60,120 nucleotides of DNA, taken from NCBI GenBank assembly GCA_038882975.1, contig JAVZNE010000008.1, forward strand, positions 1 through 60,120, read 5' to 3'. The notes beneath the pieces are model-generated. The model did not search any database. It was not told where the DNA came from and worked only from the letters and a program-made list of their open reading frames with translations. This DNA is from Candidatus Bathyarchaeia archaeon. GTDB taxonomy: Archaea > Thermoproteota > Bathyarchaeia > Bathyarchaeales > Bathycorpusculaceae. A program made the translations under genes and the position numbers. Shown piece after piece: positions 4,047 through 19,898 of this stretch (the first letter of the stretch is position 1; every line of letters starts with the position of its first letter).

Positions 4047-5195
4047 ATGCTTTGCTGCCCACAGTGTGGCTCAACACTCCTCTATAAAGACGGCTTACGC
4101 TATTTAGCAGACAGTTCAAGCATACAACGATACCTATGCAGAAACTGCGGTTATCGGTTCAGCGAAACCAGAAAACCATATAATGGCTCAATCACAAAAA
4201 GTGAATGTGATGCACACCAAAAGGCGGCCAAGCTTTTGGTGGAAGCCCAAGGGCAAACTGAAAAGCAGGAAGCGGGAGCCACAAAGCTCAGTCAAATGGA
4301 TGTAAAAGGTAAAGTCTTAGAGTTTCTCTGGTGGACCCAAAAGCAAGGACTTGCATATGAAACTATTAGAGGCTATCATTCATGTCTAAGAGCCTTAATG
4401 AACAAAGGTGCCAACCTCTTAGATCCAGAAAGCGTTAAGGAAATTTTAGCTGTGGAAAAGCGTTGGAGTCCAAATCGGCGTAGAAACGTAATAAACAGCT
4501 ACACAAAGTTTCTCAACTTCCTTGGATTTTCGTGGCAAAAACCTAAATGTCATGTTCCAAAGAAGCTTCCCAGTTTTATCCCGATGGAAGCAGAGATAGA
4601 CGCGCTGATAGCCGGCTCAAACAAGACATTAGCATGTTTCCTTCAACTGATTAAGGAAACAGCTATGAGGGCCGGAGAGGCATTTAGGCTTAAATGGACC
4701 GACATAGACTTTGAAAGACGTATCGTAGTTCTAAATGATCCTGAAAAAGGGAGTAGCTCACGCGTGTGGAAGATAAGCACTAAACTTGTTGAAATGCTTA
4801 ATAGTCTTCCGAGAAAAGGAGAGAAAGTGTTTCCAAACAAAAGCTTGGCAAGTCTTAAAAACACGTTTATTGTGACGAGGAAGCGCTTAGCGCATAAGCT
4901 CCAAAACCCACGTTTACTTAGAATAGGCTTTCATACCATTCGCCATTGGAAAGCCACGATGGAATACCATAAGACAAGGGATATTCTGTATGTCAAGAAC
5001 ATGCTTGGACATAAGAAAATCGAAAACACAGAAATCTACATTAACCTTGAAAAGGCCATCTTTGGAGAAGGAGCCGACCAGGAATATTATGTGAAAGTGG
5101 CACAGAAGCCTGAGGAGATAAAAACCCTATTGGAAGTAGGCTTTGAATATGTATGCGAGAAAGATGGACTGCTGTTCTTTAGAAAACGCAAGTGA
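4047..5195 (+). CDS. Tyrosine recombinase/integrase with N-terminal zinc ribbon
   Basis: Catalytic residues R (AMRAGE), K, HTIR, LGH, Y (TEIY); CPQC...CRNC at the N-terminus. Confidence 0.93.
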   Translation: MLCCPQCGSTLLYKDGLRYLADSSSIQRYLCRNCGYRFSETRKPYNGSITKSECDAHQKAAKLLVEAQGQTEKQEAGATKLSQMDVKGKVLEFLWWTQKQGLAYETIRGYHSCLRALMNKGANLLDPESVKEILAVEKRWSPNRRRNVINSYTKFLNFLGFSWQKPKCHVPKKLPSFIPMEAEIDALIAGSNKTLACFLQLIKETAMRAGEAFRLKWTDIDFERRIVVLNDPEKGSSSRVWKISTKLVEMLNSLPRKGEKVFPNKSLASLKNTFIVTRKRLAHKLQNPRLLRIGFHTIRHWKATMEYHKTRDILYVKNMLGHKKIENTEIYINLEKAIFGEGADQEYYVKVAQKPEEIKTLLEVGFEYVCEKDGLLFFRKRK

Positions 5196-6614: not shown

Positions 6615-7172
6615 ATGTTGCCATCTATAGAGGAAATAGCAAAGAGAAGGAAGTTGTTGGGTTTAACCCAAGAACAACTGGCAAAGCTTGCTGGTGTGAG
6701 CCAGTCTTTTATCGCCAAACTAGAGTCGGGAAAAATTGATCCATCATACAGTAAGGTAAAAGCCGTCTTCGACGTTTTAGAGAGGGCGGAGACTGGAGAA
6801 AACTACACCGCTAAGACGGTTTTCCATGAAGGCGTTGTGGGTGTTGAGAAAACTGACAAAGTTGCTAAAGCCATAAGCCTAATGATGGAACATGGTTTCT
6901 CACAGTTGCCAGTATTTGATAAAGGAAAATGCGTGGGCTGTGTATCAGAAAAAACGATACTAGGCCAAGTGACAGCTGCCAAAGACCTCTCTAAAGTGTC
7001 TCAAAAACTTGTAGAAGAAATTATGGAAGAAGCGCCACCCCAGATTGACGAAAACGCTCCCCTACAATTGGTTTCAAGCCTATTACGTTTCTATCCTGCA
7101 GTCCTTGTCACAAAAAAGGGCGAGATAGCTGGCATAATAACAAAGGCGGACCTCTTTAAAGTAGTCACATGA
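6615..7172 (+). CDS. XRE-family HTH plus CBS-pair transcriptional regulator
   Basis: LGLTQEQLAKLAGVSQSFIAKLESGKIDP HTH followed by two CBS domains (GFSQLPV, GIITKADL). Confidence 0.9.
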   Translation: MLPSIEEIAKRRKLLGLTQEQLAKLAGVSQSFIAKLESGKIDPSYSKVKAVFDVLERAETGENYTAKTVFHEGVVGVEKTDKVAKAISLMMEHGFSQLPVFDKGKCVGCVSEKTILGQVTAAKDLSKVSQKLVEEIMEEAPPQIDENAPLQLVSSLLRFYPAVLVTKKGEIAGIITKADLFKVVT

Positions 7173-7268
7173 CGCAGAGCCTCCATTTAACCAAAATCCA
7201 ACATTTCCTCTGCGTGAAGCCTATGTCGGAAAAGTTATTGAGGAAATAAGCAAAAAGATGAATCGTCT

Positions 7269-8111
7269 TCAAAGGTTAGCTTTTGGATAGGAGCCTAAAA
7301 TTTTTATGAATAGCGTTTTGTCTCGAAGCTCATTTAGGGCTTCCGAACATTTTGGTTCGTTTTTATGGCCTTCAAAGTCGAGGTAAAAAATGTATTCCCA
7401 TGGCTTTATCCTTGTGGGTCTGGACTCTATTTTAGTGAGATTGATTCCTCTTTTGGCGAACACGCCTAATGCTTCGTAAAGGGTTCCGGGAGCATGTTTA
7501 ACTGAGAAAATTATGGATGTCTTATCGTTACCTGTTGGTGGTGCGTCCCTTTTCGAAAGAATTACAAATCTGGTATAATTGTCTGGAACGTCGGATATAT
7601 TTTTTGCAAGAATTTTCATTCCATAAAGTTCTGCGGCTTTCTTGCTGGCTATCGCAGCTTCATTTATTGAGCCTTTCGCTTTTATTATTTTGACGCTGCC
7701 AGCTGTGTCGTAGGTCGGTATTACCTCGCACATTAGTTTCTCCAAAAATTTGGAGCATTGCGCTAAAGCCTGTGGATGTGAGTAAACCCTTTTTATAAAA
7801 CTTAAGTTGGCGTTGGGGGTTCCTACCAAACAATGCTCTATTTTGAGGATTGTTTCCCCGCAAATCTTGAGGCTGTTAGTTAATAGTAGATCATAGACTT
7901 GGTTCACATCACCTTCAATAGAGTTTTCTATCGGGAGAACGCCGTATTCCGTTGCTTCCAATTGAACCATCCTAAAAACTTCTAGGAAACTTGTACATGG
8001 GACAGGCTGGACTTTGACGCCGAAATGTTTGTACACAGCCGCTTCGCTGTAGGCTCCAGGCTCCCCTTGGAACGCTACTTGTAGGGGTTTTTCCTTCATG
8101 ATAGCCACCAT
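7269..8111 (-). CDS. pheA: Prephenate dehydratase with ACT domain
   Basis: VAFQGEPGAYSE, PIENSIEG, SHPQALAQC, NYTRF, LTKIESRP motifs. Confidence 0.96.
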   Translation of the reverse strand: MVAIMKEKPLQVAFQGEPGAYSEAAVYKHFGVKVQPVPCTSFLEVFRMVQLEATEYGVLPIENSIEGDVNQVYDLLLTNSLKICGETILKIEHCLVGTPNANLSFIKRVYSHPQALAQCSKFLEKLMCEVIPTYDTAGSVKIIKAKGSINEAAIASKKAAELYGMKILAKNISDVPDNYTRFVILSKRDAPPTGNDKTSIIFSVKHAPGTLYEALGVFAKRGINLTKIESRPTRIKPWEYIFYLDFEGHKNEPKCSEALNELRDKTLFIKILGSYPKANL

Positions 8112-8253
8112 TCATGGTTGTTTGCCTACAGCCCCTTAATTTGTCGATTCGAGAAGACGCATATACCTTTCTATTTATGCTTACTAAAGCACCGCGTTTG
8201 AATAATTAATCCGTTGCTTGATAGCGCCTGATTTTCAGTTATAGAACAAAGAA

Positions 8254-8269
8254 CCAAAAAGTATAAATA
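8254..8269 (+). promoter_or_regulatory. BRE/TATA promoter of the aromatic biosynthesis operon
   Basis: CCAAAAAG-TATAAATA ending 26 nt before the leader ATG at 8296, consistent with a near-leaderless transcript. Confidence 0.65.
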
Positions 8270-8295
8270 TGGTAACGTTTTTATTGTTGGGCTCG

Positions 8296-8373
8296 ATGAA
8301 TAATCCAATAGCCACTGAAATTAAACTCGAATTGTGTGAATGTGGCTATTGGTATTACTTCTTTAGCTATTAA
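8296..8373 (+). CDS. Putative aromatic amino acid attenuator leader peptide MNNPIATEIKLELCECGYWYYFFSY
   Basis: 25-codon ORF; 7 of the last 8 codons are Tyr/Trp/Phe; lies between the promoter and the first gene of the aro operon. Confidence 0.75.
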   Translation: MNNPIATEIKLELCECGYWYYFFSY

Positions 8374-8421
8374 GGAGAAACCGCGGCGCCTTTAAACCCG
8401 GTTTCTCTCTTCTGGGGTTTG
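8305..8421 (+). promoter_or_regulatory. Candidate attenuator RNA structures
   Basis: IR CCAATAGCCAC(8305-8315)/GTGGCTATTGG(8342-8352); IR GAGAAACCG(8375-8383)/CGGTTTCTC(8399-8407); alternative pairing TAAACCC(8393-8399)/GGGTTTG(8415-8421) over the putative SD. Confidence 0.6.
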
Positions 8422-8423
8422 TT

Positions 8424-9722
8424 GTGGAGGAGAATCAAAATCATGTTTTCGGTTCCATTCTTGTTGTGAAGTTTGGCGGAAGTAGTTTAGCGAATGGAGA
8501 AAAAATATCTAACGCCGTCAAAGCTGTCATAAAGGAGTTGAAGAAGGGAGCAAAAATTGCAGTGGTTGTTTCCGCCATGGGTAAAACCACAGATCTTCTA
8601 CTTGAGGCTTTGAGGGAGGCCACGAACTGTGGAAAAACACAGGCATGTAACCAAGACGTCGATGACGTCCTAGCCATGGGGGAGAGGACAAGTGCAAGAA
8701 TATTCTCGACAGCTCTCAAAGCAAACGGTGTGAGATGCCACTATTTCGACCCATCAGACCTAGACTGGCCCATAATTACCAATGATGTTCCAATGAACGC
8801 TGACCCCATACTGGAAATATGTGAAGAACGTGTTTGTAAGCATGTTTTGCCCTTGCTTAACGAGGGAATCGTCGTCGTTGTTCCTGGCTTCGTCGGCAAA
8901 ACGTTAGACGGCAAAATCACGACAATGGGGAGGGGTGGAAGCGACATAACCGCACTCGTTTTGGCGCGGGCTCTCAAGGCAAAACAAGCTATACTTGTAA
9001 CTGACGTCGACGGTATAATGACCGCTGATCCCAAACTTGTAAAATTTGCAAGAAAAATACCTGAAATTAATGTTGATTTATTAATTGGGCTTGCAAGTTC
9101 TTCTCACAGGTTTCTGCAGAGAAAAGCCTTAAAATACAAAGAAGACTGGTTGGACATTAAAATCATAAACCACAACCACTGCGATCTAAACGCTGAAGGA
9201 ACCGTTATCAAAGGTTCTCTCGTTAAAAAAATTGTTGACATTGATTTCCCGGAGGCGATTGCCTCCATAACCATTGTTGGAGAGGGGCTTTCCCAATCGC
9301 CAGAGATTATACATCAAGTTATCCAGAAAATAAGAAGCGTGGAAGTACATATCGTTGGATTTTCAGCCAATTATGATTCCCTCATGTTATACATTCCGGA
9401 AAGTATGCTTAATAAAATCCTTGAACCTCTTCATTCGATCGTCCAAGACCACAAGGAGGCCATAGCCATGGCTGTGAGAAAAAATCTTGCCCTAATCAAG
9501 ATTAAAACAGCCGAATTCGAAGAGGCGCTCGGGATACTTAGTAATCTGATTAGGAGCCTAAGCATAAAAGGTATTAACATCTATGGGCTGTCCATGGCGG
9601 CATCTGGGATTCATGTTTTTGTTGATAGAGGATATGCAGAGGAGGCTTTAATGATTGCTAGTAAATCTTTGCAGGAAAGTCCTGAACCATCACTAGAATT
9701 TCAGATTACGGAGGTAAAGTAG
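8424..9722 (+). CDS. lysC: Aspartate kinase with ACT domains
   Basis: VVKFGGSS, VVVSAMGKTTD, TMGRGGSDITA, TDVDGIMTADP. Confidence 0.9.
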   Translation: MEENQNHVFGSILVVKFGGSSLANGEKISNAVKAVIKELKKGAKIAVVVSAMGKTTDLLLEALREATNCGKTQACNQDVDDVLAMGERTSARIFSTALKANGVRCHYFDPSDLDWPIITNDVPMNADPILEICEERVCKHVLPLLNEGIVVVVPGFVGKTLDGKITTMGRGGSDITALVLARALKAKQAILVTDVDGIMTADPKLVKFARKIPEINVDLLIGLASSSHRFLQRKALKYKEDWLDIKIINHNHCDLNAEGTVIKGSLVKKIVDIDFPEAIASITIVGEGLSQSPEIIHQVIQKIRSVEVHIVGFSANYDSLMLYIPESMLNKILEPLHSIVQDHKEAIAMAVRKNLALIKIKTAEFEEALGILSNLIRSLSIKGINIYGLSMAASGIHVFVDRGYAEEALMIASKSLQESPEPSLEFQITEVK

Positions 9723-9724
9723 AA

Positions 9725-10513
9725 ATGCTTAGTGGAAAAAGCAAGAGAATGCAGAGAATATTTGGCAACGATGGAAAAACCGTGATTGTTCCTTTGGATC
9801 ATGGGGTTACTAACGGTCCCATGCAAGGCCTTGTAAGCATGCAAAGCACTATTGACAAGCTTGTTGCTGGTGGCGCAGACGCTGTTGTCTTGCATAAGGG
9901 CATAGCGAAAAACGTAGACACAAAGAGGCTTGGACTTATTGTGCATGTTTCCGCGAGCACAAAAGTTGGCCCTGATGCCAATTGGAAGATAAGAGTTTGC
10001 GCTATCGAAGAGGCTATTCGTTTAGGATGCGATGCTGTTTCGGTCCATGTGAATGTTGGTGCAGATCGTGAACATGAGATGTTGGCGGAGCTTGGCAGGT
10101 TGGCTGACGAGTGTGATTCGTGGGGTATTCCATTACTCGCCATGATGTATCCACGGGGGCCAAAGGTCAAAAGCGAACATGACCCCGAACTTGTTGCCCA
10201 TGCGGCAAGGCTTGGCGCGGAGCTGGGCGCAGACATAGTAAAGACAAATTATACCGGGGATCCAAAATCTTTTAGAAAAGTTGTTGAAGGATGTCCTGTT
10301 CCGTTGATAATTGCTGGTGGTCCCAAAGTCAATTCGACTAGAAGGTTGCTGGAAATGGTTTATGATGCGATACAAGCTGGTTGTGCGGGAGTATCCATAG
10401 GTCGAAACGTTTTCCAACACGAAGACCCGACAGCCATTACAAGAGCCCTTGTTGGGATAGTCCATAGAGGTCTAAAAGTTAGGGAGGCTATGGCGCTGTT
10501 AAAAAGAAACTAG
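9725..10513 (+). CDS. aroA': 2-amino-3,7-dideoxy-D-threo-hept-6-ulosonate synthase (class I aldolase, AroA')
   Basis: PLDHG, MMYPRG, ELGADIVKTNY, AGGPK, GRNVFQH; adjacent to DHQ synthase II. Confidence 0.92.
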   Translation: MLSGKSKRMQRIFGNDGKTVIVPLDHGVTNGPMQGLVSMQSTIDKLVAGGADAVVLHKGIAKNVDTKRLGLIVHVSASTKVGPDANWKIRVCAIEEAIRLGCDAVSVHVNVGADREHEMLAELGRLADECDSWGIPLLAMMYPRGPKVKSEHDPELVAHAARLGAELGADIVKTNYTGDPKSFRKVVEGCPVPLIIAGGPKVNSTRRLLEMVYDAIQAGCAGVSIGRNVFQHEDPTAITRALVGIVHRGLKVREAMALLKRN

Positions 10514-10601
10514 CTTTTCGCAATATTAATCAGTAACGCGGCCTTTCCTAAAAGCGAAAAAGTTGGTGGTTGTTACGTTTACAAGGAGAGAAGGCTTAAG
10601 C

Positions 10602-11675
10602 ATGAGAGAACTTTGGCTTAAAATAGACGAAACGGTTCCGCAAAGCCTTACAGAAGATTTGCTTAGCTTTGCAAGTCAAATATTGAACGCCGTCTATGTT
10701 GTAAATGAGCAGAGGATAGGTGATTTAAGGAAAATAGGAGTTAAAATTGCTGCAAGCGGCGACGATTGTGATATTCAAGTGTTAGAGTCTTTTAACATCG
10801 AAAAACTTGAGGAGTTTAAAAACGCTGGCAAGTCTGTAGCCGTTAAAGTGGTGGTCAGAACCGCGGAGGACGAAAAGGAAGCTGTGAAAGCCGCAAATCT
10901 CTCCGCCGATTACATCATGGTACAATGCTTAGACTGGAAGGTTATACCTCTTGAAAACTTAATAGCTACCACCAGAGGGAGAAGCAAGCTTTTAGCGGAG
11001 GTTTCATCGCTGGAAGAAGCTAAACTAGCCCTTGAAATCCTTGAGCTTGGGGTAGACGGCGTTGTCTTAAAGACAGCCGATTTAAACGAGCTAATAAAAG
11101 CTGCCCATTTAGTCAAAAAGCAGCTGCCGCAAGTTAAACTTGTACCAGTTAAAATAGTTGGAGTTAGACAAATAGGAACAGGAGCCAGAGTATGCGTTGA
11201 CACGTGTGATCTGATGAGGGAAGGGGAGGGGCTTCTTCTCGGCTGTCAGTCTGCATGCCTATTTTTAGTGGAGGCGGAAGTCCATGAAACCCCCTTCATT
11301 GAACCTAGACCTTTCAGGGTGAACGCTGGCCCGATATCCCTTTACGTCATGTGTTCCCCAGATAGGACGAAGTACCTTTCAGAGCTTAAAGCTGGAGACG
11401 AGCTAATGATTGTGGATAGAAACGGCAACGCTAGATTCGCGAATATTGGCAGAGTTAAGATCGAGTGGCGGCCCCTTATCCTCATTGAAGCTGAACGCGA
11501 CGGAAGACGTTACAAAACCATAACGCAGAACGCGGAAACCATTAGGCTTGTAACTGAGAAAGGCTCCATGGCTGTTACAGAGTTGAAACCTGGCGATGAA
11601 GTTTTAGCGCATATGCTTGAAGGCGGAAGACATTTCGGAACCCTCGTGAAGGGAGAGAGGGTTGTGGAGCTTTGA
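10602..11675 (+). CDS. aroB': 3-dehydroquinate synthase II (AroB')
   Basis: DWKVIPLENLIA, RVCVDTC, PFRVNAG, KIEWRPL, QNAETIRL, GRHFG. Confidence 0.95.
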   Translation: MRELWLKIDETVPQSLTEDLLSFASQILNAVYVVNEQRIGDLRKIGVKIAASGDDCDIQVLESFNIEKLEEFKNAGKSVAVKVVVRTAEDEKEAVKAANLSADYIMVQCLDWKVIPLENLIATTRGRSKLLAEVSSLEEAKLALEILELGVDGVVLKTADLNELIKAAHLVKKQLPQVKLVPVKIVGVRQIGTGARVCVDTCDLMREGEGLLLGCQSACLFLVEAEVHETPFIEPRPFRVNAGPISLYVMCSPDRTKYLSELKAGDELMIVDRNGNARFANIGRVKIEWRPLILIEAERDGRRYKTITQNAETIRLVTEKGSMAVTELKPGDEVLAHMLEGGRHFGTLVKGERVVEL

Positions 11676-12355
11676 ATGTAAAGATATGCGTTTCTGTTAT
11701 GCCCCGAAACCTTAGCAATGCATTGAAACTTATCGAAAAAGCGGAGAAAAACCTGGCAGACTTCATTGAAGTGAGGTTAGATTGTACCGGCTGGTTTAAA
11801 GGGTTGAAGGATATTGCCGGATGCGCGAAAACGCCGTTAATCGCAACCATTAGAACACCTGGGCATCGCGGAAAATTTTTGGGAAGAGAGGATGAACGTA
11901 TAAAAATTCTTTTGAGTGCTGCTTCGAGCGGGTTCAGTTACGTGGACATTGAGCTTGATTCTCCTTGGCTGAAAAATGCGGTGAACGATTTGCTTGCCAT
12001 GGGTGTCAAGCCTATAATATCCTTTCACGACTTCGAGAAAACGCCGGAAACAGCTAAGCTCCAGCAAATTCTTAAAAGCGAAATTGCGATGGGCGCCGAC
12101 GTTTGCAAGATAGTGACAACGGCGCAAACTATGCAGGACAATCTAACTTTGCTGCATTTCTTGAATAGTGAAGGCGGAAAGGCTAGAATCGTGTGCTTCG
12201 CCATGGGGGCTTTGGGCAAACTATCAAGACTTTTGTCGCCGATTTTTGGAGGATACTTTACGATAGCTTCCCTAAAGTGTGGGATGGAAACGGCCAGCGG
12301 CCAAATGACAATACAAGAAATGAAAACAGCTTATAGGGCATTGGGAGTTATGTAA
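11672..12355 (+). CDS. aroD: 3-dehydroquinate dehydratase type I
   Basis: EVRLD, YVDIEL, ISFHDFEKTP, KIVTTA, FAMGALGKLSRL. Confidence 0.93.
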   Translation: MNVKICVSVMPRNLSNALKLIEKAEKNLADFIEVRLDCTGWFKGLKDIAGCAKTPLIATIRTPGHRGKFLGREDERIKILLSAASSGFSYVDIELDSPWLKNAVNDLLAMGVKPIISFHDFEKTPETAKLQQILKSEIAMGADVCKIVTTAQTMQDNLTLLHFLNSEGGKARIVCFAMGALGKLSRLLSPIFGGYFTIASLKCGMETASGQMTIQEMKTAYRALGVM

Positions 12356-13231
12356 ATGGAGGTTTCTGGGAAAACTAAAGTTTTCTGTGTCATAGGCGAT
12401 CCGGTTGAGCATTCACTAAGCCCAATAATGCATAACACTGCCTTTAGACATTTGAAAATTGATGCGGTATATGTTGCTTTTAAAGTGGAAAAAGAAAACC
12501 TTGAAAGTGCCATAAAAGGCATGCGAAGCCTTGGCATATGCGGGATGAACGTGACAATGCCTCATAAAACAGCCATCGTCAACTACCTAGACGAAATTGA
12601 CCCAACAGCGAAATTTATTGGAGCTGTTAACACGGTGCTTAACAGAAACGGGAAACTTGTGGGATTCAACACCGACGGTGTTGGCGCCGTAGTAGCCTTA
12701 AAGGAAAACGGTGTAGAACCTAGAGGTAAAAAGTTTCTACTCTTGGGAGCGGGAGGTGCTGGGCGGGCTATAGCCTTCCAACTGGCACATGAAGCAGATG
12801 AGCTCATCATCCTAAATAGGGACGCATACAAGGCTAAACTTTTGGCAGATACGCTCCAAAAGAAATTTAATAAGAAAATCATGGGGGACGGTCTCTCCTA
12901 CGATAGCCTTAAAGGAAGGCTTAGGGACGTGGATGTGCTTATTAACGCTACTTCTGTAGGCATGCTTCCCTATCACGATCATTCATTACTTGAAAGGGAT
13001 CTACTAAGACCAGAACTCACTGTTATGGATATAGTTTACAACCCTGTTGAAACGAGGCTTTTAAAGGACGCGAAATCCGTTGGTGCTAAAGTTATCAATG
13101 GCATTGAAACGCTTGTTTTCCAAGGAGCTGTTTCTTTTGAGATTTGGTGGAATCAGCCAGCCCCCATAAGCGCTATGAGAACGGCTGTTATGGAAAAACT
13201 CCGCATGGTGGAATCAAAACTTGGGCAGTAG
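12356..13231 (+). CDS. aroE: Shikimate dehydrogenase
   Basis: GDPVEHSLSPIMHN, NVTMPHK, GAVNT, NTDG, GAGGAG, NATSVGM, DIVYNP. Confidence 0.96.
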   Translation: MEVSGKTKVFCVIGDPVEHSLSPIMHNTAFRHLKIDAVYVAFKVEKENLESAIKGMRSLGICGMNVTMPHKTAIVNYLDEIDPTAKFIGAVNTVLNRNGKLVGFNTDGVGAVVALKENGVEPRGKKFLLLGAGGAGRAIAFQLAHEADELIILNRDAYKAKLLADTLQKKFNKKIMGDGLSYDSLKGRLRDVDVLINATSVGMLPYHDHSLLERDLLRPELTVMDIVYNPVETRLLKDAKSVGAKVINGIETLVFQGAVSFEIWWNQPAPISAMRTAVMEKLRMVESKLGQ

Positions 13232-14102
13232 AGCCACAGCTATAAGTTACGGCGGCGCAACCATAATTAACGCTATTGCAACTGGTAAGGGAGCTGCCTT
13301 CGGGGTAAAGTTATGGACAAAAGCGGAAGTCGAGTTGACAGACAATCCTGGAGTTGTAAAGGGTGAAATCCTCTCAGACCCCCATGAAAGTACAATACTA
13401 ATAGAAAAAACTGTGAGAAAGGCTCTAGAACACTTTGGAGTCGCTGAAAAGTTTGGAGCGGAAGTTAGAACATGGTCAAATATACCTATCGCCCGTGGAT
13501 TAAAAAGCAGCAGCGCAGCTGCAAACGCTATAGCCCTCGCAACCGTAGCCGCCCTCTGCAAAGAGGTCGACGACTTAACTATAGTCAATTTAGGCGTTGA
13601 AGGGGCCATTGAAGCAAAAGTAACTATAACCGGAGCCTTCGATGACTCTTGCGCTTCTTACTTTGGTGGTATTGTCATCACGGATAACTTAAAGAGAAGA
13701 ATAATTAAGCAACTCAAAGCTCCGGAAAACCTTAAAGTCGTGTTCCACATACCGCAAACAAAGGTTTACACAGAAAGCATTGATGTTAAAAAACTGAAAG
13801 TTATAGCGCCCCTAGTTAAAATAGCCTACAAAGAAACTTTGAAAGGAAACTTCTGGCAAGCTTTAACGCTAAATGGGCTAATATACTCTTTTGCATTAAG
13901 TTACAGTCCTTCTATAGTTCTAGACGCCCTAATGGCTGGGGCGATAGCCGCAGGACTCTGCGGAAAAGGGCCAGCTATAACGGCGGTCACCACCGAGGAC
14001 AAAGTTGACCGTGTTAAAGAGGCTTTAATGGGATACGAAGGCGAAATTATAGAGACCCAGATAAATCATGAAAAGGCTAAAGTTCTAGGAGTCTCTCAAT
14101 GA
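13221..14102 (+). CDS. aroK: Archaeal shikimate kinase (GHMP family)
   Basis: TIINAIATGKGAAFG, PIARGLKSSSAAAN, TGAFDD. Confidence 0.93.
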   Translation: MGSRATAISYGGATIINAIATGKGAAFGVKLWTKAEVELTDNPGVVKGEILSDPHESTILIEKTVRKALEHFGVAEKFGAEVRTWSNIPIARGLKSSSAAANAIALATVAALCKEVDDLTIVNLGVEGAIEAKVTITGAFDDSCASYFGGIVITDNLKRRIIKQLKAPENLKVVFHIPQTKVYTESIDVKKLKVIAPLVKIAYKETLKGNFWQALTLNGLIYSFALSYSPSIVLDALMAGAIAAGLCGKGPAITAVTTEDKVDRVKEALMGYEGEIIETQINHEKAKVLGVSQ

Positions 14103-15385
14103 TGGATGTTATTATCAAACCCACAAAAACATTGAAAGGAGAGGTCGCCGCCCCATCATCAAAGTCCTACACGCATAGAATACTTATTGCAGCGCTCTTA
14201 TCAAATGGGAGGACAAAAATAGAAAAACCTCTAGTCTCCGAAGATACACTGGCAACTCTTGAGGCGGTGAAAGCCTTTGGAGCCGATGTGAAACAAAACA
14301 ACGGTCTCTGGGAGATCAACGGTCAGCCGCATCTGAAAGCGCCCATGAATCCCGTTAACTGCCGAGAGTCTGGTGCTACATTACGCTTCATGATACCCGT
14401 AGCCGCCTTAGCTGATGGAAACACGACATTTTTTATGAGGCAGTCACTGAGCAGGAGACCGATACTGCCGTTGCTTCAAAGCCTCAGGCAGCTTGGAGTG
14501 AAAACCCAATATAAACCTCCCTTTGTAACTGTTTATGGCAACAGTATTGACGGCGGAAAAACAACATTGCCGGGCGACGTAAGCTCCCAGTTCATATCCG
14601 GCCTTTTATTTGTATGTCCCCGCGCAAAAAGGAGCACCCAAATAACCCTCACAAAACCCATTGAGTCTAAGAGCTACATTGAAATGACTGTGGAGGTGTT
14701 AAGCAAGCACTCCATTACAGTTGAGTTTTCGGAAGATTTCAGTCGGATACACGTTCCAAGCGGGCAAAACTACCAGCCATCTGGTCATAAAGTTCCTGGA
14801 GACTTTTCCTCCGCAGCATATCTACTCGCCGCAGCCGCCATAACTTCGTCTAAAATAAAGATACATAATCTTGATTACGCCTCAAAACAAGGGGATAAGG
14901 CACTTTTAGAAATACTTGGGCAGTCAGGGCTAAGCGTCTCCATTGGAGAGGGCTTCGTCGAGGTATGGGGTGCGCTCCACAACGCTATAGACGTTGATGC
15001 TCGCGATATTCCAGACTTAGTGCCTGCATGTACAGCCATTGCATGTTATACAACTGGCGCGTCAATAATACGTAATGTCCGAAGGCTAAGATACAAGGAA
15101 TCCGACAGATTAACCGCCCTTTACACCGAGTTTAGAAAAATGGGCGCCGATATAGATGTGAAAGGGGACAGCCTAATAATAAGGGGGCCGTGCGAACTTC
15201 ACGGTGCGGTGATAAACCCACATGGCGATCATAGAATAGCCATGGCTTGCGCGGCTGCTGCCTTAGGAGCTGAAGGCGAAACCGTTATTATGAACGCTGA
15301 ATGTGTGAGAAAGTCTTATCCGAAATTCTTCGAAGACTTATACATACTGGGAGCGAGTATAATTGGCGGCAAACTCGATTGGTAA
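14099..15385 (+). CDS. aroA: 3-phosphoshikimate 1-carboxyvinyltransferase (EPSP synthase)
   Basis: SKSYTHR, ESGATLRF, SSQFISGLL, LRYKESDR, DHRIAM, KSYPKF. Confidence 0.96.
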   Translation: MMDVIIKPTKTLKGEVAAPSSKSYTHRILIAALLSNGRTKIEKPLVSEDTLATLEAVKAFGADVKQNNGLWEINGQPHLKAPMNPVNCRESGATLRFMIPVAALADGNTTFFMRQSLSRRPILPLLQSLRQLGVKTQYKPPFVTVYGNSIDGGKTTLPGDVSSQFISGLLFVCPRAKRSTQITLTKPIESKSYIEMTVEVLSKHSITVEFSEDFSRIHVPSGQNYQPSGHKVPGDFSSAAYLLAAAAITSSKIKIHNLDYASKQGDKALLEILGQSGLSVSIGEGFVEVWGALHNAIDVDARDIPDLVPACTAIACYTTGASIIRNVRRLRYKESDRLTALYTEFRKMGADIDVKGDSLIIRGPCELHGAVINPHGDHRIAMACAAAALGAEGETVIMNAECVRKSYPKFFEDLYILGASIIGGKLDW

Positions 15386-16472
15386 AGCCTTCGTAGTGAC
15401 ATCCTTCGGCGAAAGCCACGGCAAATGCGTCGGCGCCGTTATAGACGGTTGCCCGGCAGGCCTTCCCCTCTCTGAAGGAGACATTCAAGTAGAATTAGAT
15501 AAGAGAATTCCCCAAAAGCATGAAATAACTTCAGGAAGAATTGAAAAAGATATTGTTGAGCTTTTGTCGGGAGTGTTTGAAGGGTACACCACAGGCGCAC
15601 CCATCTGCATGCTGGTTTGGAATAAGGAAGCAACCCCCTCAGATTATGATGTTATAAAGGATTTGCCTAGACCTGGACATGCGGACTATCCGGCCTGCGT
15701 CAAATATGGCGGATTTAACGATTATAGAGGCGGCGGAAGATTCTCTGGAAGAATTACAGTATCCTTTATCATAGCCGGGGCTGTCGCAAAGAAACTTTTA
15801 CGAATATTTGGAGTTGAAGTGTTGGCCTACACCAAAGCCATAGGCAGCGTAGAAATGAAAGAAACGCCGACGCTGGAACAAATCAGAGAAGAAACCTACA
15901 AAAATCCGGTAAGATGTCCAATCCCAGCCTGTGCAAAATCCATGGAAGAAGCCATAATCAAGGCCAGAGAGGAAGGGGACAGCCTCGGAGGCGTTGTGGA
16001 ATGCATAGCTTTAAATGTTCCAGCCGGAGTCGGCGAGCCGATATTTGATGCGTTAGATGCGGACATTGCAAAAGCAATTTTCGCTGTACCAGCAGTGAAA
16101 GGCGTAGAATTCGGCGCAGGCTTTAAAGCCGCCGCCATGAAGGGGTCTGAAAATAACGACCAATATGCTGTACGAGATGGCAAAGCGGTAACGTTGACAA
16201 ACAATGCCGGTGGAGTGCTTGGCGGTTTATCCAACGGAATGCCTATTGTGTTTAGAGCGGCTATCAAGCCAACACCATCAATCTTCAAAAAACAGAAAAC
16301 CATAAATCTATCAAAATTTGAGGAAGCAACGCTGCAGATAAAAGGGAGACACGATCCATGCATAGTACCAAAAGCCGTTCCTGTAATAGAGTCGGTGGTA
16401 GCCATAACCTTGGCAGACCTTATGATAAGGGCTGGAATAATGCCAAAGGTTCTGGTAAGGAAGAGGCGTTAA
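15363..16472 (+). CDS. aroC: Chorismate synthase
   Basis: FGESHG, RPGHAD, GGGRFSGR, NNAGGVLGG, KPTPSI, GRHDPC. Confidence 0.97.
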   Translation: MAANSIGKAFVVTSFGESHGKCVGAVIDGCPAGLPLSEGDIQVELDKRIPQKHEITSGRIEKDIVELLSGVFEGYTTGAPICMLVWNKEATPSDYDVIKDLPRPGHADYPACVKYGGFNDYRGGGRFSGRITVSFIIAGAVAKKLLRIFGVEVLAYTKAIGSVEMKETPTLEQIREETYKNPVRCPIPACAKSMEEAIIKAREEGDSLGGVVECIALNVPAGVGEPIFDALDADIAKAIFAVPAVKGVEFGAGFKAAAMKGSENNDQYAVRDGKAVTLTNNAGGVLGGLSNGMPIVFRAAIKPTPSIFKKQKTINLSKFEEATLQIKGRHDPCIVPKAVPVIESVVAITLADLMIRAGIMPKVLVRKRR

Positions 16473-16732
16473 AGAAAATAGCAGCATTAAGACGGAAAAT
16501 AGATAAAATAGATGAAGAAATCCTCCTACTATTAAAAGAGAGACTTGAAACATCCAAGAAAATAGGTAAAATAAAACAGAGGCACGGAGTTCCAGTAAGG
16601 GATCCTGGAAGAGAAGAGGAGAAATACAAACAAATAACCGAAAAAGCTTTGAAGTTGATGCTCAACCCAGAAGATGTCAAAGACCTTTATCGGAAAATAA
16701 TAGATATGAGCGTGCATGTACAAGATCAATGA
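16469..16732 (+). CDS. Chorismate mutase (AroQ); no canonical start codon near the domain start
   Basis: LRRKIDKIDEEILLLLKER...IGKIK...VRDPGREE; first codon after the purine-rich stretch is TTA. Confidence 0.8.
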   Translation, partial: LKKIAALRRKIDKIDEEILLLLKERLETSKKIGKIKQRHGVPVRDPGREEEKYKQITEKALKLMLNPEDVKDLYRKIIDMSVHVQDQ

Positions 16733-17505: not shown

Positions 17506-18033
17506 TTGGCGTCTAAGAAAACGCCTATATGGGTTGCTCGAGACCTTTCAAGGTGCAGCGGCTGCAGAAAATGCGAGATAGCGTGTTCACTTTTCCATGA
17601 GAAGCGTATATGGCCTGAAGCCTCCCGCATTAGGGTTTTTATGCTTGCTCCGGGTGTTGAGTTTCCCCATTTTTGCGCTCAGTGTGAGGATTACCCATGT
17701 GTCCAGGCTTGTCCAGTTAACGCCCTATCAGTGAGCAGAGAAACTGGCGCGGTTCTTGTGGATTCTAATGCTTGTATTGGCTGTGGGAAATGTGTTGAGG
17801 CTTGTCCTGGGAGGATTCCGCATATGCACCCGGTGGAAAACAAGATTTTAATTTGCGACTTGTGCGGTGGCGACCCGCAATGTGTCAAGGTTTGCCAAGA
17901 GGGACTTTGGAATGTTCTGCGGGCTGTGCCCAGAGGAAACTACTCTTACAAGCTTTATGCCAGAACTCCGGAGGAGATTGCCCGGGATTTGGCTGTTAAA
18001 ATTTTTGGAGAAGATGGGGAGCGGTACGTATGA
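17506..18033 (+). CDS. 4Fe-4S dicluster electron-transfer subunit of AOR
   Basis: CSGCRKCEIAC, CAQCEDYPCVQACP, CIGCGKCVEACP, CDLCGGDPQCVKVC. Confidence 0.92.
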   Translation: MASKKTPIWVARDLSRCSGCRKCEIACSLFHEKRIWPEASRIRVFMLAPGVEFPHFCAQCEDYPCVQACPVNALSVSRETGAVLVDSNACIGCGKCVEACPGRIPHMHPVENKILICDLCGGDPQCVKVCQEGLWNVLRAVPRGNYSYKLYARTPEEIARDLAVKIFGEDGERYV

Positions 18034-19898
18034 TTAGGGGTTATGCTGGAAAATTCTTAGAGGTTGACCTTTCCACACAAAGTTTTAAGGAAGTAGAGTT
18101 CAGCGATGAGGTTTTAAGGGATTATGTTGGCGGTAGGGGTTTAGCCACAAAAATCCTCTGGAACAGGCTTGGCGGTAGATGGGAAACCATTGACCCGCTT
18201 GGGCCGGAAAACTTGCTGCTATTCATTACTGGACCGCTTACGGGCTTTTTCCCGGGCGGGCGGATTTGTGTTTCTGGTAAGTCTCCGCAAAGCAACGGTG
18301 TTGTTGGCTCAACCGTTGCCGGAGAGTTTGGCGTCGAACTGAAGTGTGCTGGATATGATGGCATCATAGTGTCTGGTGAGGCTGAGAAGCCATGCTATAT
18401 TTTCATTAAGGATTCTGATGTTGAAATCTGTGATGCCAGCCACATTTGGGGTTTTGACGCAAAACAAACGGTCACTGTTCTAACTCGGGAATGTAGAGAG
18501 CTTTTGAAGGCTCGTTATCCACAGAAAGGCGAGTGGAAAGAGCCGTCAATCCTCTACATTGGTCCTGCTGGAGAGAACGAAGTGCGGACGGCTGTTGTTG
18601 CGGCTAAGTGGTCTCATGCTGCTGGTTATGGCGGCTACGGCGCCGTAATGGGTGCTAAGAGGCTTAAGGCGATAGCGGTTAAGGGTACTAGTCCACTGCC
18701 CGATGTTGCCGATATGGAAGGGGTAAAAGCGCTTATGCAGGAGGTTTGCAATAACGCCTATGAAAGTGAGCTTTGGAGACGTTGGGGGACTGGTTCAGCT
18801 GGCTACGAGGTTGGGGCTAAGACAAGCTCTGAGCCTGTTCGGAACTGGCAGGAGGAGTGGCACGACGAGAGAAGCTTTGGGGTTAACGAGTTTGAAAACA
18901 GGGTTTGGATTAAGCAGTATTGGGGGGATTTTGGCTGTCCGACAACATGCCTTAAACTGGCTGTTATAAGGTCTGGAAAGTTTAAGGGCGCAATAACAGA
19001 TAATCCCGACTACGAGTTGCAGGCCTATTTAGGCACAAACTTGGGCATATTCACTCCGGAAGAAAATGTTTACATGGCTTCCGTAATAGACGATTTGGGG
19101 CTTTGCGGCATACAAACAGGCAATGTGTTGGGTTTTGCAGCGGAACTTTTCCAAAGGGGAATATTGACAAAGAAGGACTTGGATGGCATAGAACTGAAGT
19201 GGGGTAACGCTGAGGCTTTCGCCGCCCTAGCCAGGAAAATCGCCTACAGAGAAGGCATAGGCAACATCCTAGCTGAAGGCACATACCGTGCAGCCCTAAA
19301 AATTGGCGAAATGAAGGGTGTTGATGCTATGCCCTACGCCGTGCAGGTTAAGGGCGTAGGTGTTGGCGCCCATGGAATAAGAAGCGAAAAGGATTATCCT
19401 GAAATATACTCTTATGCCTGTTCTGTACAATGTGGCGACCACACTTCCACCGCGTGCATGCCACTGGACGATTTTAGAAGCGAACTTATGATGGCATTTC
19501 ACGATTCAGGCGTTTACTGCTACTTCAATGTTTTTGGACTCCCCCGCACCTTGGTTTTCGACTTTTACAAGGCTGTGACAGGCATAGAATTGACAAAAGA
19601 GGATTGGGTTGCCACAAAAGCCATGAAAATAATACAGCTGCAGAGGGCAATGCTCCTCCTAGGCGGACCAGACCTAAAATGGAATCCGGAAATCCACGAT
19701 GACAATCCACCCCGTTTCTATGAGCCACTGCCATCGGGACCATACAAAGGCAAAGCAATCGATAAGGCGCGTGTGGACGAGGAGAAACGTAAGTATTATG
19801 AGCTTGTCGGTTGGGATGAGAGGGGTATACCAAAGTCGGAAATTCTTAAAAAGCTTGGATTAGACGACGTTGACAAAGCCTTAGAAAAACTCCGCTAA
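18030..19898 (+). CDS. Tungsten-dependent aldehyde:ferredoxin oxidoreductase family protein
   Basis: YVGGRGL, KSPQS, AGYDGII, IGPAGEN, GAVMGAKRLKAI, DDLGLC, YYELVGWDERGIP. Confidence 0.93.
   Translation: MIRGYAGKFLEVDLSTQSFKEVEFSDEVLRDYVGGRGLATKILWNRLGGRWETIDPLGPENLLLFITGPLTGFFPGGRICVSGKSPQSNGVVGSTVAGEFGVELKCAGYDGIIVSGEAEKPCYIFIKDSDVEICDASHIWGFDAKQTVTVLTRECRELLKARYPQKGEWKEPSILYIGPAGENEVRTAVVAAKWSHAAGYGGYGAVMGAKRLKAIAVKGTSPLPDVADMEGVKALMQEVCNNAYESELWRRWGTGSAGYEVGAKTSSEPVRNWQEEWHDERSFGVNEFENRVWIKQYWGDFGCPTTCLKLAVIRSGKFKGAITDNPDYELQAYLGTNLGIFTPEENVYMASVIDDLGLCGIQTGNVLGFAAELFQRGILTKKDLDGIELKWGNAEAFAALARKIAYREGIGNILAEGTYRAALKIGEMKGVDAMPYAVQVKGVGVGAHGIRSEKDYPEIYSYACSVQCGDHTSTACMPLDDFRSELMMAFHDSGVYCYFNVFGLPRTLVFDFYKAVTGIELTKEDWVATKAMKIIQLQRAMLLLGGPDLKWNPEIHDDNPPRFYEPLPSGPYKGKAIDKARVDEEKRKYYELVGWDERGIPKSEILKKLGLDDVDKALEKLR

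What the first reader, a model, noticed from the sequence alone, without database searches (positions are those of the whole stretch)
8296..8373. Aromatic-codon leader peptide ahead of the shikimate operon: candidate archaeal ribosome-mediated attenuator
Seen: a 25-codon ORF, too short for the ORF track, reads MNNPIATEIKLELCECG-YWYYFFSY-stop. It starts 26 nt after a BRE/TATA box and ends 50 nt before the first gene of a nine-gene chorismate operon. Seven of the last eight codons are Tyr (4), Phe (2) or Trp (1), so all three end products of the pathway are represented. Assuming about 9% aromatic codons, the chance of this in a given 8-codon window is roughly 1e-7 to 1e-6 (rough estimate). Established: bacterial trpL/pheL-type leaders sense charged tRNA through such codon runs, and archaeal transcription and translation can be coupled. 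Archaeal amino acid operons are generally described as repressor-controlled (TrpY, Lrp family), and I know of no well-established leader-peptide attenuator in archaea. Inference: this is a three-amino-acid sensing leader.
Basis: partly seen in the sequence, partly recalled or inferred. Interest (0 to 1): 0.95.

Follow-up and report, generated by a model that had tools for sequence, protein, structure and literature searches.

The report
Aromatic-codon leader peptide in Bathyarchaeia
A tiny gene made mostly of tyrosine and phenylalanine codons sits in front of the aromatic amino acid pathway genes of many Bathyarchaeia and looks like an archaeal version of the ribosome-read 'supply gauge' long known from bacteria, built in a different way.

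Summary
The 25-codon ORF is there as described (8296-8373; 7 of its last 8 codons aromatic). Its C-terminus is the most aromatic of 20,987 small ORFs in the 1.42-Mb genome. It is not chance. Of 92 orthologous regions ahead of the aspartate kinase-aroA'-aroB' operon, 70 carry an ATG ORF of 12-29 codons whose last 12 codons are 65% Tyr/Phe/Trp. They occur in several nucleotide versions that my two RNA models do not cross-detect. Length changes inside the ORF come in threes (36/39, 38/38); those beside it do not. Tyr/Phe codons vary synonymously. Two hairpins frame the aromatic run. H1 ties the start-codon region to the first aromatic codons. H2 begins at the nucleotide after the stop codon in 60 of 69 leaders and ends just before the first gene's ribosome-binding site. 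I found no competing (antiterminator) helix. Trp codons are not conserved, and no Trp leader precedes trp operons. Best reading: a Tyr/Phe-sensing, ribosome-mediated attenuator with a new architecture. Sensing is well supported by comparison; the read-out step is inferred. No RNA data were available. I found no archaeal precedent in the searched literature or in Rfam.

The parts
8253..8269 (+). Promoter: purine-rich BRE-like AACCAAAAAG followed by TATAAATA (8262-8269)
   Evidence: Nearly invariant in 5 of 5 aligned relatives. The TATA-to-ATG distance is 33-43 nt in 14 of 15 relatives; the 15th (51 nt) is probably a mis-picked motif. The transcription start a few nt before the ATG is inferred from recalled archaeal promoter geometry, not measured.
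8296..8373 (+). Leader ORF, 25 codons, MNNPIATEIKLELCECGYWYYFFSY*
   Evidence: ATG, frame and stop are conserved in 15 of 15 family relatives. Indels fall in multiples of three.
8305..8315 (+). Hairpin 1, 5' arm CCAATAGCCAC (codons 4-7)
   Evidence: 11 pairs kept in 5 of 5. A compensatory A-U to G-C change (ATA/TAT to GTA/TAC) occurs in G094, and G-U changes in G161 and G087.
8342..8352 (+). Hairpin 1, 3' arm GTGGCTATTGG (overlaps the first Tyr and Trp codons)
   Evidence: duplex -22.6 kcal/mol, z -2.8 against shuffles.
8347..8370 (+). Aromatic run: TAT TGG TAT TAC TTC TTT AGC TAT
   Evidence: The orthologous runs are 65% aromatic.
8375..8407 (+). Hairpin 2: GAGAAACCG...CGGTTTCTC, beginning 1 nt after the stop codon (a G8374-U8408 pair is possible)
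   Evidence: The same position relative to the stop holds in 65 of 69 leaders (offset 0-1 nt). The stem sequence differs between lineages.
8402..8413 (+). Pyrimidine tract TTTCTCTCTTCT, partly inside the 3' arm of hairpin 2
   Evidence: Relatives have T3-T6 here. The 3' half of hairpin 2 is T-rich in general.
8414..8426 (+). GGGG (Shine-Dalgarno-like), spacer, and GTG start of aspartate kinase
   Evidence: GGGGG(T) and TGTGG are conserved. Codons after the GTG stay in frame across a 3-nt indel.
8424..16732 (+). Nine-gene operon: aspartate kinase to chorismate mutase
   Evidence: NCBIfam and Pfam hits.

Best explanation
The ORF is a translated leader peptide. Its Tyr/Phe-rich 3' half acts in cis as a gauge of charged tRNA-Tyr and tRNA-Phe for the operon that makes chorismate and prephenate. 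Transcription starts a few nucleotides before the ATG (inferred), so the leader is the first cistron. Two stable hairpins that do not compete with each other frame the gauge. H1 pairs the start-codon region with the sequence at the first aromatic codons, so once folded it should shut off further initiation on the leader. H2 begins at the nucleotide after the stop codon and ends 15-22 nt before the start codon of the first gene. From recalled ribosome dimensions, a ribosome waiting anywhere in the run up to the second-last codon leaves H2 closed. Only a ribosome that finishes the peptide (last codon or stop in the A site) pulls the 5' arm of H2 apart. Completion therefore means 'aromatic tRNAs charged, H2 opened', and stalling means 'H2 closed, H1 held open'. 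For negative feedback, closed H2 must favour expression. My preferred read-out is inferred, at about 1 in 3 given the sensor. Closed H2 hides its U-rich 3' half and insulates the 50-nt untranslated gap. When the finishing ribosome holds the A-rich 5' arm, the U-rich tract emerges single-stranded behind RNA polymerase and is used by the archaeal U-tract/aCPSF1(FttA) termination route. Transcription then stops before aspartate kinase. Shown: the ORF, its conservation in frame, its composition, both hairpins and their positions. Inferred: the transcription start site, translation, the direction of control and the effector of H2.
For: Unusual in its own genome: top of 20,987 small ORFs.
Conserved ORF: 15 of 15 relatives found by DNA or RNA-model search have an ATG ORF of 22-26 codons with 6-10 aromatic residues. 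70 of 92 regions examined (15 + 77) have an ORF with >=5 aromatic residues in the last 10 codons within 260 nt of the aspartate kinase KFGG motif.
Specificity: among 5,338 unique-stop small ORFs in 80 loci, only 4 outside the called leader position reach 6/10. Two of these are real leaders missed by my gene chaining, and a third (L058) also counts as a leader.
Coding phase: in 39 loci located by RNA-motif anchors alone, ORF-internal distances are multiples of 3 in 36/39 and 38/38, across 3-4 length classes. Hairpin-2 span (12/9/17) and the 5'-arm-to-3'-arm distance of hairpin 1 (28/6/5) are not.
Synonymous change: TAC/TAT 31/13 in one all-Tyr column. One column holds TAT 14, TAC 13, TTT 8, TTC 4. 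Variation is highest at the third codon position.
Composition conserved, sequence not: peptides such as ...FSGYWYMFNY...SFDYYFYYYFN...YYYYYYYCFF...FFDFFYYYFYFE, MMFYRYRFFFYR and MAYFFFSY. Model R1 finds 3 of 80 loci. Model R2 does not find G000, G025 or G087.
Hairpin 2 starts 0 nt after the stop in 60 of 69 leaders and within 1 nt in 65 of 69, with unrelated stem sequences in different lineages.
Hairpin 1: duplex z<0 in 69 of 69 and < -2 in 31 of 69.
One-sided changes keep G-U pairing on the + strand 38 times and break it 4 times, so the structures are RNA.
The 5' half of H2 is A-rich and the 3' half T-rich.
One copy per genome, always at this operon.
Against: No RNA evidence of any kind was available: no transcription start site, no ribosome footprints, no 3' ends (one search listed no RNA run).
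No alternative helix exists. Predicted accessibility of the aspartate kinase RBS barely changes with simulated ribosome positions (0.47 free against 0.48-0.49). The 3' arm of H2 pairs with downstream sequence worse than with shuffles (mean z +0.65).
If H2 is read as a simple terminator blocked by a nearby ribosome, control has the wrong sign: expression would be on when tRNAs are charged.
The U-rich tract is modest in this window (TTTCTCTCTTCT), and its position varies. The longest T-run between the stop and aspartate kinase is classed inside H2 in 58 and after it in 11 of 69; in this window that run lies far downstream.
The leader was not seen in every family that has the operon: 0 of 6 f17, 0 of 3 f26, 0 of 4 f31, 0 of 3 f35, 0 of 2 f10 and 0 of 3 f11 loci, and f38, f46, f50, f51 and f63.
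The related sequences are not independent, so the p-values overstate.
No analogous leaders were found for other amino acids.
Confidence: 0.65

Rival explanations
1. Same sensor, translational read-out. Slow decoding of the run keeps a ribosome on the 3' arm of H1, so the leader's start codon stays open and ribosomes keep loading. Their arrival at the stop unwinds H2 and gives access, or hands ribosomes over, to the aspartate kinase RBS just beyond the hairpin. With charged tRNAs the first ribosome clears, H1 shuts the leader, H2 stays closed, the first gene is poorly translated, and polarity lowers the whole operon.
For: The 5' arm of H1 always lies within about 20 nt of the ATG, and its 3' arm lies at the first aromatic codons. 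ATG-to-3'-arm spacing is tightly 42/45/48 nt. The stop abuts H2, and the start codon lies 15-22 nt after H2 in most leaders. The closest experimental analogue, the mycobacterial polycysteine leaderless sORFs, is translational (bioRxiv 10.1101/834739; abstract and discussion read).
Against: The Shine-Dalgarno sequence is not inside H2, and predicted RBS accessibility does not depend on H2. Hand-over across a hairpin has no archaeal precedent that I know of (recalled). It does not explain the A-rich/T-rich asymmetry of H2.
Confidence: 0.15
2. Same sensor, bacterial-style read-out. H2 plus the following U-run is a premature terminator, and a ribosome close to the stop codon prevents it from folding, as in pyrBI-type coupling or a degenerate trp-type attenuator.
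For: In some lineages H2 looks like a textbook terminator: an 11-14 bp stem followed by TTTTT and then GGAGG-ATG in f14, and T4-T6 after H2 in several f1 genera.
Against: The sign is wrong for a biosynthetic operon, because only a ribosome that has finished the run can reach H2. No antiterminator exists. In 58 of 69 leaders the longest T-run lies inside H2, not after it. In this genome gene ends show T-runs without preceding hairpins.
Confidence: 0.1
3. The ORF is translated but is not a sensor. Either it encodes a functional aromatic micropeptide, or it is a constitutive upstream ORF whose U/A-rich codons are dictated by an RNA element.
For: Within one lineage the peptide motif is well conserved (S-F-[DEG]-Y-x-F-Y-Y).
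Against: Across lineages only the composition, the length range and the position survive. The conserved residues I-A-T and S-G-Y, or S-F-D, are the codons that form H1. The ORF is always tied to this one operon, one copy per genome.
Confidence: 0.05
4. An untranslated structured leader RNA. Two hairpins flank a UAY/UUY repeat that a protein binds (as TRAP binds triplet repeats) or that acts as a U-rich termination or processing signal. The ORF is incidental.
For: The stems are highly conserved and the run is U/A-rich. No expression data show translation.
Against: The ATG, the frame and a stop placed exactly at the base of H2 are kept through indels that come only in threes. Changes in the run keep aromatic codons (TAT/TAC/TTT/TTC) rather than U-richness as such. 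No Rfam family matches.
Confidence: 0.04

Closest known systems
E. coli pheL (pheA leader) and pheM (pheST leader) peptides (recalled, not fetched here)
   Same: A short ORF ahead of aromatic-pathway genes, packed with cognate codons right up to its end. The ribosome's progress reports charged tRNA.
   Different: Those use mutually exclusive 1:2, 2:3 and 3:4 helices and a bacterial intrinsic terminator. Here there are two independent hairpins with no detectable competitor. Tyr and Phe codons are mixed, and the polymerase and termination system are archaeal.
trpL attenuator (recalled)
   Same: The stop codon is placed so that a finishing ribosome covers the next RNA segment. A structure limits leader translation to an early round.
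   Different: In trp the covered segment is the antiterminator half, and its partner then forms the terminator. Here the freed 3' arm has no alternative partner.
Polycysteine leaderless short ORFs of mycobacteria (Canestrari et al., bioRxiv 10.1101/834739; abstract and discussion read)
   Same: A leaderless or near-leaderless first cistron with a cognate-codon run controls a downstream biosynthetic operon. The control is ribosome-directed, without a dedicated regulator.
   Different: There the stalled ribosome blocks a duplex that sequesters the downstream RBS. Here the RBS is not sequestered in any modelled state. That system is bacterial, has several loci per genome and responds to one amino acid.
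TnaC/tna operon (recalled)
   Same: The decisive event is a ribosome at the stop codon of a leader peptide, which changes access of a termination factor to RNA next to the stop.
   Different: TnaC stalls with free Trp and blocks Rho, inducing a catabolic operon. Here the proposed effect is the opposite sign and works through a hairpin.
Protein repressors of archaeal amino acid genes (TrpY, Lrp family) (recalled)
   Same: The same physiological task.
   Different: Those are DNA-binding proteins at promoters. Nothing here requires one, although an HTH-CBS gene lies nearby (6615-7172).

Membership tests
Leader-peptide transcription attenuators (trpL/pheL/hisL class) | Short ORF in the 5' leader of a biosynthetic operon, enriched in codons for the pathway's product | tested here: met
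   7 of the last 8 codons are aromatic, the top value in the genome, ahead of a chorismate/prephenate operon.
Leader-peptide transcription attenuators (trpL/pheL/hisL class) | ORF and codon bias conserved in orthologous leaders while the peptide sequence drifts | tested here: met
Leader-peptide transcription attenuators (trpL/pheL/hisL class) | Mutually exclusive antiterminator and terminator helices selected by ribosome position | tested here: not met
   both hairpins are stable in all modelled states. No partner for the 3' arm of hairpin 2 scores better than shuffles.
Leader-peptide transcription attenuators (trpL/pheL/hisL class) | Hairpin followed by a U-run directly before the first structural gene | tested here: inconclusive
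   The hairpin is present in all 69 folded leaders. A T-run directly after it occurs in some lineages only. The window has TTTCTCTCTTCT.
Leader-peptide transcription attenuators (trpL/pheL/hisL class) | Read-through responds to charged-tRNA supply | not testable with these tools
   No RNA run is listed, and these organisms are known mainly as MAGs.
Translational attenuators (ermCL, cat leader, mycobacterial Cys sORFs) | RBS of the regulated gene sequestered in a helix that a ribosome stalled in the leader opens | tested here: not met
   mean unpaired probability of the RBS region is 0.47 free against 0.48-0.49 with a ribosome at four positions. The SD lies outside hairpin 2.
Any curated cis-regulatory RNA family (Rfam 15) | Match to a covariance model | tested here: not met
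   window 7000-10000, E<=10: only chance-level hits elsewhere; 7 representative loci, 0 hits at E<=0.1.

The most novel reading that the evidence does not exclude
Archaea use ribosome-mediated attenuation, and Bathyarchaeia and neighbouring lineages of the phylum do it without competing RNA helices. The finishing ribosome itself toggles a protective hairpin that abuts the stop codon, exposing a U-rich tract to the archaeal termination machinery. A second hairpin restricts the leader to a pioneer round of translation. That would make transcription-translation coupling a regulatory device in archaea. It would also give a third solution, beside bacterial alternative-helix attenuators and translational unmasking, to reading charged tRNA with a ribosome.
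Probability: 0.25. Interest if true: 0.92.

Novelty: new variant of a known kind. Interest (0 to 1): 0.85.

Why it matters
Leader-peptide attenuation is a textbook bacterial mechanism, and archaeal amino acid operons are described as repressor-controlled. My six literature searches returned only bacterial or eukaryotic cases, and Rfam holds nothing that matches. A leader conserved across many families, with in-frame evolution and a stop codon locked to a hairpin, would give a concrete archaeal system for testing whether ribosome position is used for gene control. That question has been open since archaeal transcription-translation coupling and polarity were described. The architecture has no antiterminator, so it also asks how a hairpin next to a stop codon is read out by an archaeal polymerase, termination factor or ribosome. 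In practice, the ORF is too short for gene callers and is missing from annotations. The motif can also flag Bathyarchaeia contigs placed in bins with other labels.

Tried and rejected
RNA evidence: the look-up of sequencing runs listed no RNA holder, only DNA runs labelled hot springs metagenome. Read laying was therefore not used, and nothing about expression follows.

Classical switch: constrained folding with a 28-nt block at four ribosome positions and duplex searches for the 3' arm of hairpin 2 found no conserved alternative pairing. Local ideas failed to generalise and were dropped. These were CUCC/GGGG or CUCUUCU/GGAGGAG in the window's lineage, a 5'-UTR copy of the 5' arm in L054, and UUCUUU with GGAGAA.

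Hairpin 2 as an ordinary terminator of this organism: gene ends in this genome show T5+ runs (138 of 482, against 122 of 744 upstream controls) but no hairpin enrichment before them.

Other leaders: a scan of 3,243 intergenic small ORFs for single-amino-acid runs found nothing next to a biosynthetic gene. trpA and hisD were not found in this genome, which is 94.7% complete. Four relatives with trp operons show no Trp-codon uORF upstream.

A -1 frameshift at U UUU before hairpin 2 was considered and rejected, because the -1 frame hits a stop at once (reading sequences).

A DNA-level operator (inverted repeat) was rejected because one-sided changes keep G-U pairs on the + strand only.

Supplementary files of papers were not consulted, and none of the claims here rests on them.

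Counts: L051-L053 were left out because their leader peptides are identical to three G-handle loci. Some loci carry the same peptides as named loci (for example L157/L055 and L197/L054), so the sets are not additive. L067 was dropped from folding because it contains Ns.
Full report
What is in the window. Positions 8296-8373 (+) read ATG AAT AAT CCA ATA GCC ACT GAA ATT AAA CTC GAA TTG TGT GAA TGT GGC TAT TGG TAT TAC TTC TTT AGC TAT TAA, i.e. MNNPIATEIKLELCECGYWYYFFSY*. TATAAATA, preceded by a purine-rich stretch, lies at 8262-8269, 26 nt before the ATG. The next gene starts at a conserved GTG at 8424. The ATG at 8444 is out of frame, and the codons after the GTG stay in frame across a 3-nt indel in relatives. 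Downstream lie nine co-directional genes: aspartate kinase, 2-amino-3,7-dideoxy-D-threo-hept-6-ulosonate synthase (aroA'), dehydroquinate synthase II (aroB'), aroD, aroE, archaeal shikimate kinase, EPSP synthase, chorismate synthase and a type II chorismate mutase. Prephenate dehydratase is transcribed divergently (7269-8111). The closest named records are MAGs labelled Candidatus Bathyarchaeia/Bathyarchaeota (78-80% identity for aroA'). The only run holding all sampled words of this DNA is labelled hot springs metagenome.

Is it more than chance? In the whole 1.42-Mb assembly (GC 44.6%; Phe+Trp+Tyr = 8.96% of long-ORF residues) I listed every ATG ORF of 12-60 codons in six frames, 20,987 in all. 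Only the two nested ORFs ending at 8373 have 7 aromatic residues among the last 8. One ORF has 6 and 26 have 5. The most extreme small ORF of the genome therefore sits exactly ahead of the aromatic pathway operon.

Conservation. A DNA search of 61 related genomes found the whole leader in four (71-76% identity). A covariance model built from these five sequences (R1) found full-length matches in 14 of 151 genomes of the same GTDB family (E <= 2e-9). All 15 loci (14 plus G006) have an ATG ORF of 22-26 codons with 6-10 aromatic residues, ending 0-1 nt before the same hairpin. Examples are MNKPIATITYFEFYFSGYWYMFNY, MSNTIATKSMLFSGYYFSGYYFYFGF and MNNVVATCLMQLQNYSQSGYYYYASY.

Searching by the aroA' protein brought 80 named loci. 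R1 recognises only three of them. By a fixed rule, 53 of the 80 have such an ORF in the leader position. The rule was an ATG ORF of 10-45 codons, with >=6 aromatic residues in the last 10 and a stop within -60..+200 nt of the operon's first start. By label, that is 50 of 63 loci labelled Bathyarchaeia/-ota, 3 of 3 with odd labels, and 0 of 14 with other labels. Among 5,338 unique-stop small ORFs in these loci only four others pass. Two of those (L071, L096) are real leaders that my gene chaining misplaced, and a third (L058) also counts as a leader.

With a slightly looser rule (>=5 of 10, plus the aspartate kinase KFGG motif within 260 nt), 70 of 92 regions qualify. The commonest version reads like MSNCKSKKENVASQFLSFDYYFYYYFN. 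Other versions are MSRSLTRQRTMRMFGYFYFYYFGP, MMFYRYRFFFYR and MNSHSTTSTSNSSMFYSFSYFFYN.

Sampling one to six genomes from each of 18 families of the class gave clear leaders in f7, f14, f19, f27, f30, f34 and f37, in 10 of 40 loci. Examples are ...NPYYYYYYYCFF and ...ARFFDFFYYYFYFE. None was seen in f17 (6 loci), f26 (3), f31 (4), f35 (3), f10 (2) or f11 (3). Three loci were cut by contig ends.

Twelve further families of the phylum gave leaders next to the operon in f45, f56, f60 and f61 (5 of 20 loci). Weaker ones appeared in f42 and f64, and none in f38, f46, f50, f51 or f63. Among 13 named loci from other lineages, only the one labelled Brockarchaeota has a candidate, an 8-codon MAYFFFSY* directly before aspartate kinase. 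The others were Methanosphaera, Methanobrevibacter, Methanophagales, Methanosarcinales, Hadarchaeota, Hydrothermarchaeota, Nezhaarchaeota and Nitrosotalea. A second model for the commonest version (R2) hits one place per genome in 14 of 151 class genomes and does not detect the window's own version.

Is it translated? There is no direct evidence, but four lines of indirect evidence point that way.
- I located 39 leaders of the commonest version by RNA motifs alone. The distance from the 3' arm of hairpin 1 to the 5' arm of hairpin 2 is 33, 36, 39 or 42 nt in 36 of 39. The distance from the first ATG to the 3' arm is 42, 45 or 48 nt in 38 of 38. By contrast, the span of hairpin 2 falls 12/9/17 over the three residue classes, and the arm-to-arm distance of hairpin 1 falls 28/6/5.
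- Aromatic codons vary synonymously or between Tyr and Phe. One all-Tyr column is TAC 31/TAT 13. One column holds TAT 14, TAC 13, TTT 8 and TTC 4. Minor-allele fractions by codon position are 0.074, 0.159 and 0.205.
- I picked the ORFs by composition only. Even so, the stop sits exactly at the base of a hairpin in 60 of 69 leaders and within 1 nt in 65 of 69.
- Across versions the peptide sequence is not conserved, but its length (12-29 codons) and composition are. In the last 12 codons Tyr is 35.8%, Phe 27.5% and Trp 2.1%.

The residues that are conserved within a version (I-A-T with S-G-Y here; S-F-D in the commonest version) are the codons that form hairpin 1.

The two hairpins. H1 pairs CCAATAGCCAC (8305-8315, codons 4-7) with GTGGCTATTGG (8342-8352, the first Tyr and Trp codons). 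Relatives keep it through G-U changes and one compensatory A-U to G-C change that is synonymous on the Tyr side. The Trp codon TGG pairs with the Pro codon CCA: by my reading, the 11 leaders with TGG have CCA and the 4 without lack it. In the commonest version the 5' arm (GGTTCGAAGC) lies just upstream of the ATG instead, and the 3' arm is AGCTTCGA (S-F-D/E). In all 69 leaders a duplex between the ATG region and the region before the run scores better than shuffles, with z < -2 in 31.

H2 here is GAGAAACCG...CGGTTTCTC (8375-8407). Elsewhere it is GCCCAGAAC/GTTCTGGGC, GCTTCGAAACC/GGTTTCGAAGC, GGGGACCG/CGGTCCTC and others, always at the stop. One-sided substitutions keep G-U pairing on the + strand 38 times and break a pair 4 times, so these are RNA structures, not DNA operators. 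The 5' half of H2 is A-rich (36% A, 17% T) and its 3' half T-rich (35% T). The start codon of the first gene follows 15-22 nt after H2 in most leaders, with a G-rich Shine-Dalgarno-like element between them.

How it may work. The sensing step follows from the anatomy: a ribosome must decode 8-12 mostly Tyr/Phe codons before it can finish. From recalled bacterial ribosome dimensions, mRNA is held single-stranded to about +11 to +15 nt from the first P-site base. A ribosome waiting at any codon up to the second-last therefore leaves H2 closed, and only the last codon or the stop in the A site opens its 5' arm. Penultimate codons are Phe or Tyr in 50 of 70 leaders, and last codons are aromatic in only 25 of 70. 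This fits a design in which stalling spares H2 and completion opens it.

I looked hard for the bacterial solution, a helix that competes with H2, and did not find it. Simulated ribosome positions leave the predicted accessibility of the downstream RBS unchanged (0.47 against 0.48-0.49). The 3' arm of H2 pairs with downstream sequence less well than with shuffles (mean z +0.65). If H2 were simply a terminator that a nearby ribosome blocks, the operon would be on when tRNAs are charged, which is the wrong sign for a biosynthetic operon. In addition, the longest T-run lies inside H2 in 58 of 69 leaders, and gene ends of this genome show T-runs without hairpins.

I therefore take closed H2 to be the permissive state. 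My preferred effector is inferred: closed H2 hides its own U-rich 3' half and insulates the untranslated gap, and the finishing ribosome, by holding the A-rich 5' arm, leaves that tract single-stranded behind the polymerase for U-tract/aCPSF1-type termination (recalled from work on Methanococcus and Thermococcus; not read here). H1 would restrict leader translation to a pioneer ribosome loaded before its 3' arm is made, as is known for trpL (recalled).

A rival with the same sensor is translational. A slow ribosome on the 3' arm of H1 keeps the leader open, and ribosome traffic reaching the stop opens H2 and promotes initiation at the adjacent RBS, with polarity doing the rest. I put the sensor at about 0.8. 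Given the sensor, I put the hidden-U-tract read-out at about one in three, the translational one at about one in five, and a terminator-type one at about one in eight.

What it is not. No Rfam family matches the window region or seven representative loci. The three-amino-acid idea is not supported, because Trp is incidental. No trpA or hisD was found in this 94.7%-complete genome. No other amino acid leader turned up. Trp operons of four relatives have no Trp-codon uORF.

Comparison with what is known. The leader works like pheL/pheM and trpL in its sensing (recalled). It fails the defining test of that class, which is competing helices. It resembles the mycobacterial polycysteine leaderless sORFs in being a near-leaderless first cistron (bioRxiv 10.1101/834739; abstract and discussion read). 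It fails their defining feature, an RBS-sequestering duplex. Six full-text searches returned only bacterial or eukaryotic cases in the listings I read, so I saw no report of an archaeal leader-peptide attenuator. The term sets were: archaea + leader peptide + attenuation + amino acid biosynthesis; Bathyarchaeota/shikimate/attenuator; archaea + ribosome-mediated attenuation; archaeal + transcription attenuation + leader peptide + coupled; archaea/uORF/ribosome stalling/attenuation; and Bathyarchaeia + leader peptide. Subscription journals are largely outside that library.

Verdict. It is corrected on Trp and on mechanism. It is a new variant of a known kind, in a domain where the kind has not been described, and it is directly testable.

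Noticed in passing
window 6615-7172 (+): A 185-aa protein with an XRE-type HTH and a CBS pair lies next to the divergent prephenate dehydratase. It could be a conventional ligand-sensing regulator of the same gene neighbourhood.
   Followed up: no
window 4047-5195 (+): A phage-integrase-family (tyrosine recombinase) gene lies about 3 kb upstream of the aro locus.
   Followed up: no
G000 whole genome: No trpA (PF00290) or hisD (PF00815) was found in this 94.7%-complete assembly. The organism may make Phe/Tyr but depend on outside Trp and His.
   Followed up: partly
G000 contig C12:2122-2271 (+): A small ORF, MCRCCCCCWMEGHHHHGHKPMHHGG..., with runs of Cys and His was the top single-residue hit of the intergenic scan. 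It looks like a metal-binding small protein rather than a leader.
   Followed up: no
L060, L093, L096 (titles): Contigs in bins labelled Sulfotelmatobacter, Nanoarchaeia and Methanocella carry the Bathyarchaeia-type leader and aroA'. They are probably mis-binned or mislabelled, and the leader motif could serve as a lineage marker.
   Followed up: partly
L145/L146 hairpin 2 versus the commonest version's hairpin 1: The same GCTTCGAA/TTCGAAGC palindrome-like motif forms hairpin 2 in family f14 and hairpin 1 in the commonest leader version. I have no explanation for the reuse. The motif also resembles a tRNA T-arm (recalled).
   Followed up: no
window 17506-19898 (+): A 4Fe-4S ferredoxin gene is followed by an aldehyde:ferredoxin oxidoreductase just past the operon. 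This would fit aromatic aldehyde or acid metabolism, but I did not examine it.
   Followed up: no
L065, L084, L159 (f26-type loci): Where the leader is missing, the aspartate kinase ORF is longer at its N-terminus (MGDRLFGDGVY...). This may be a different arrangement of the 5' region.
   Followed up: no
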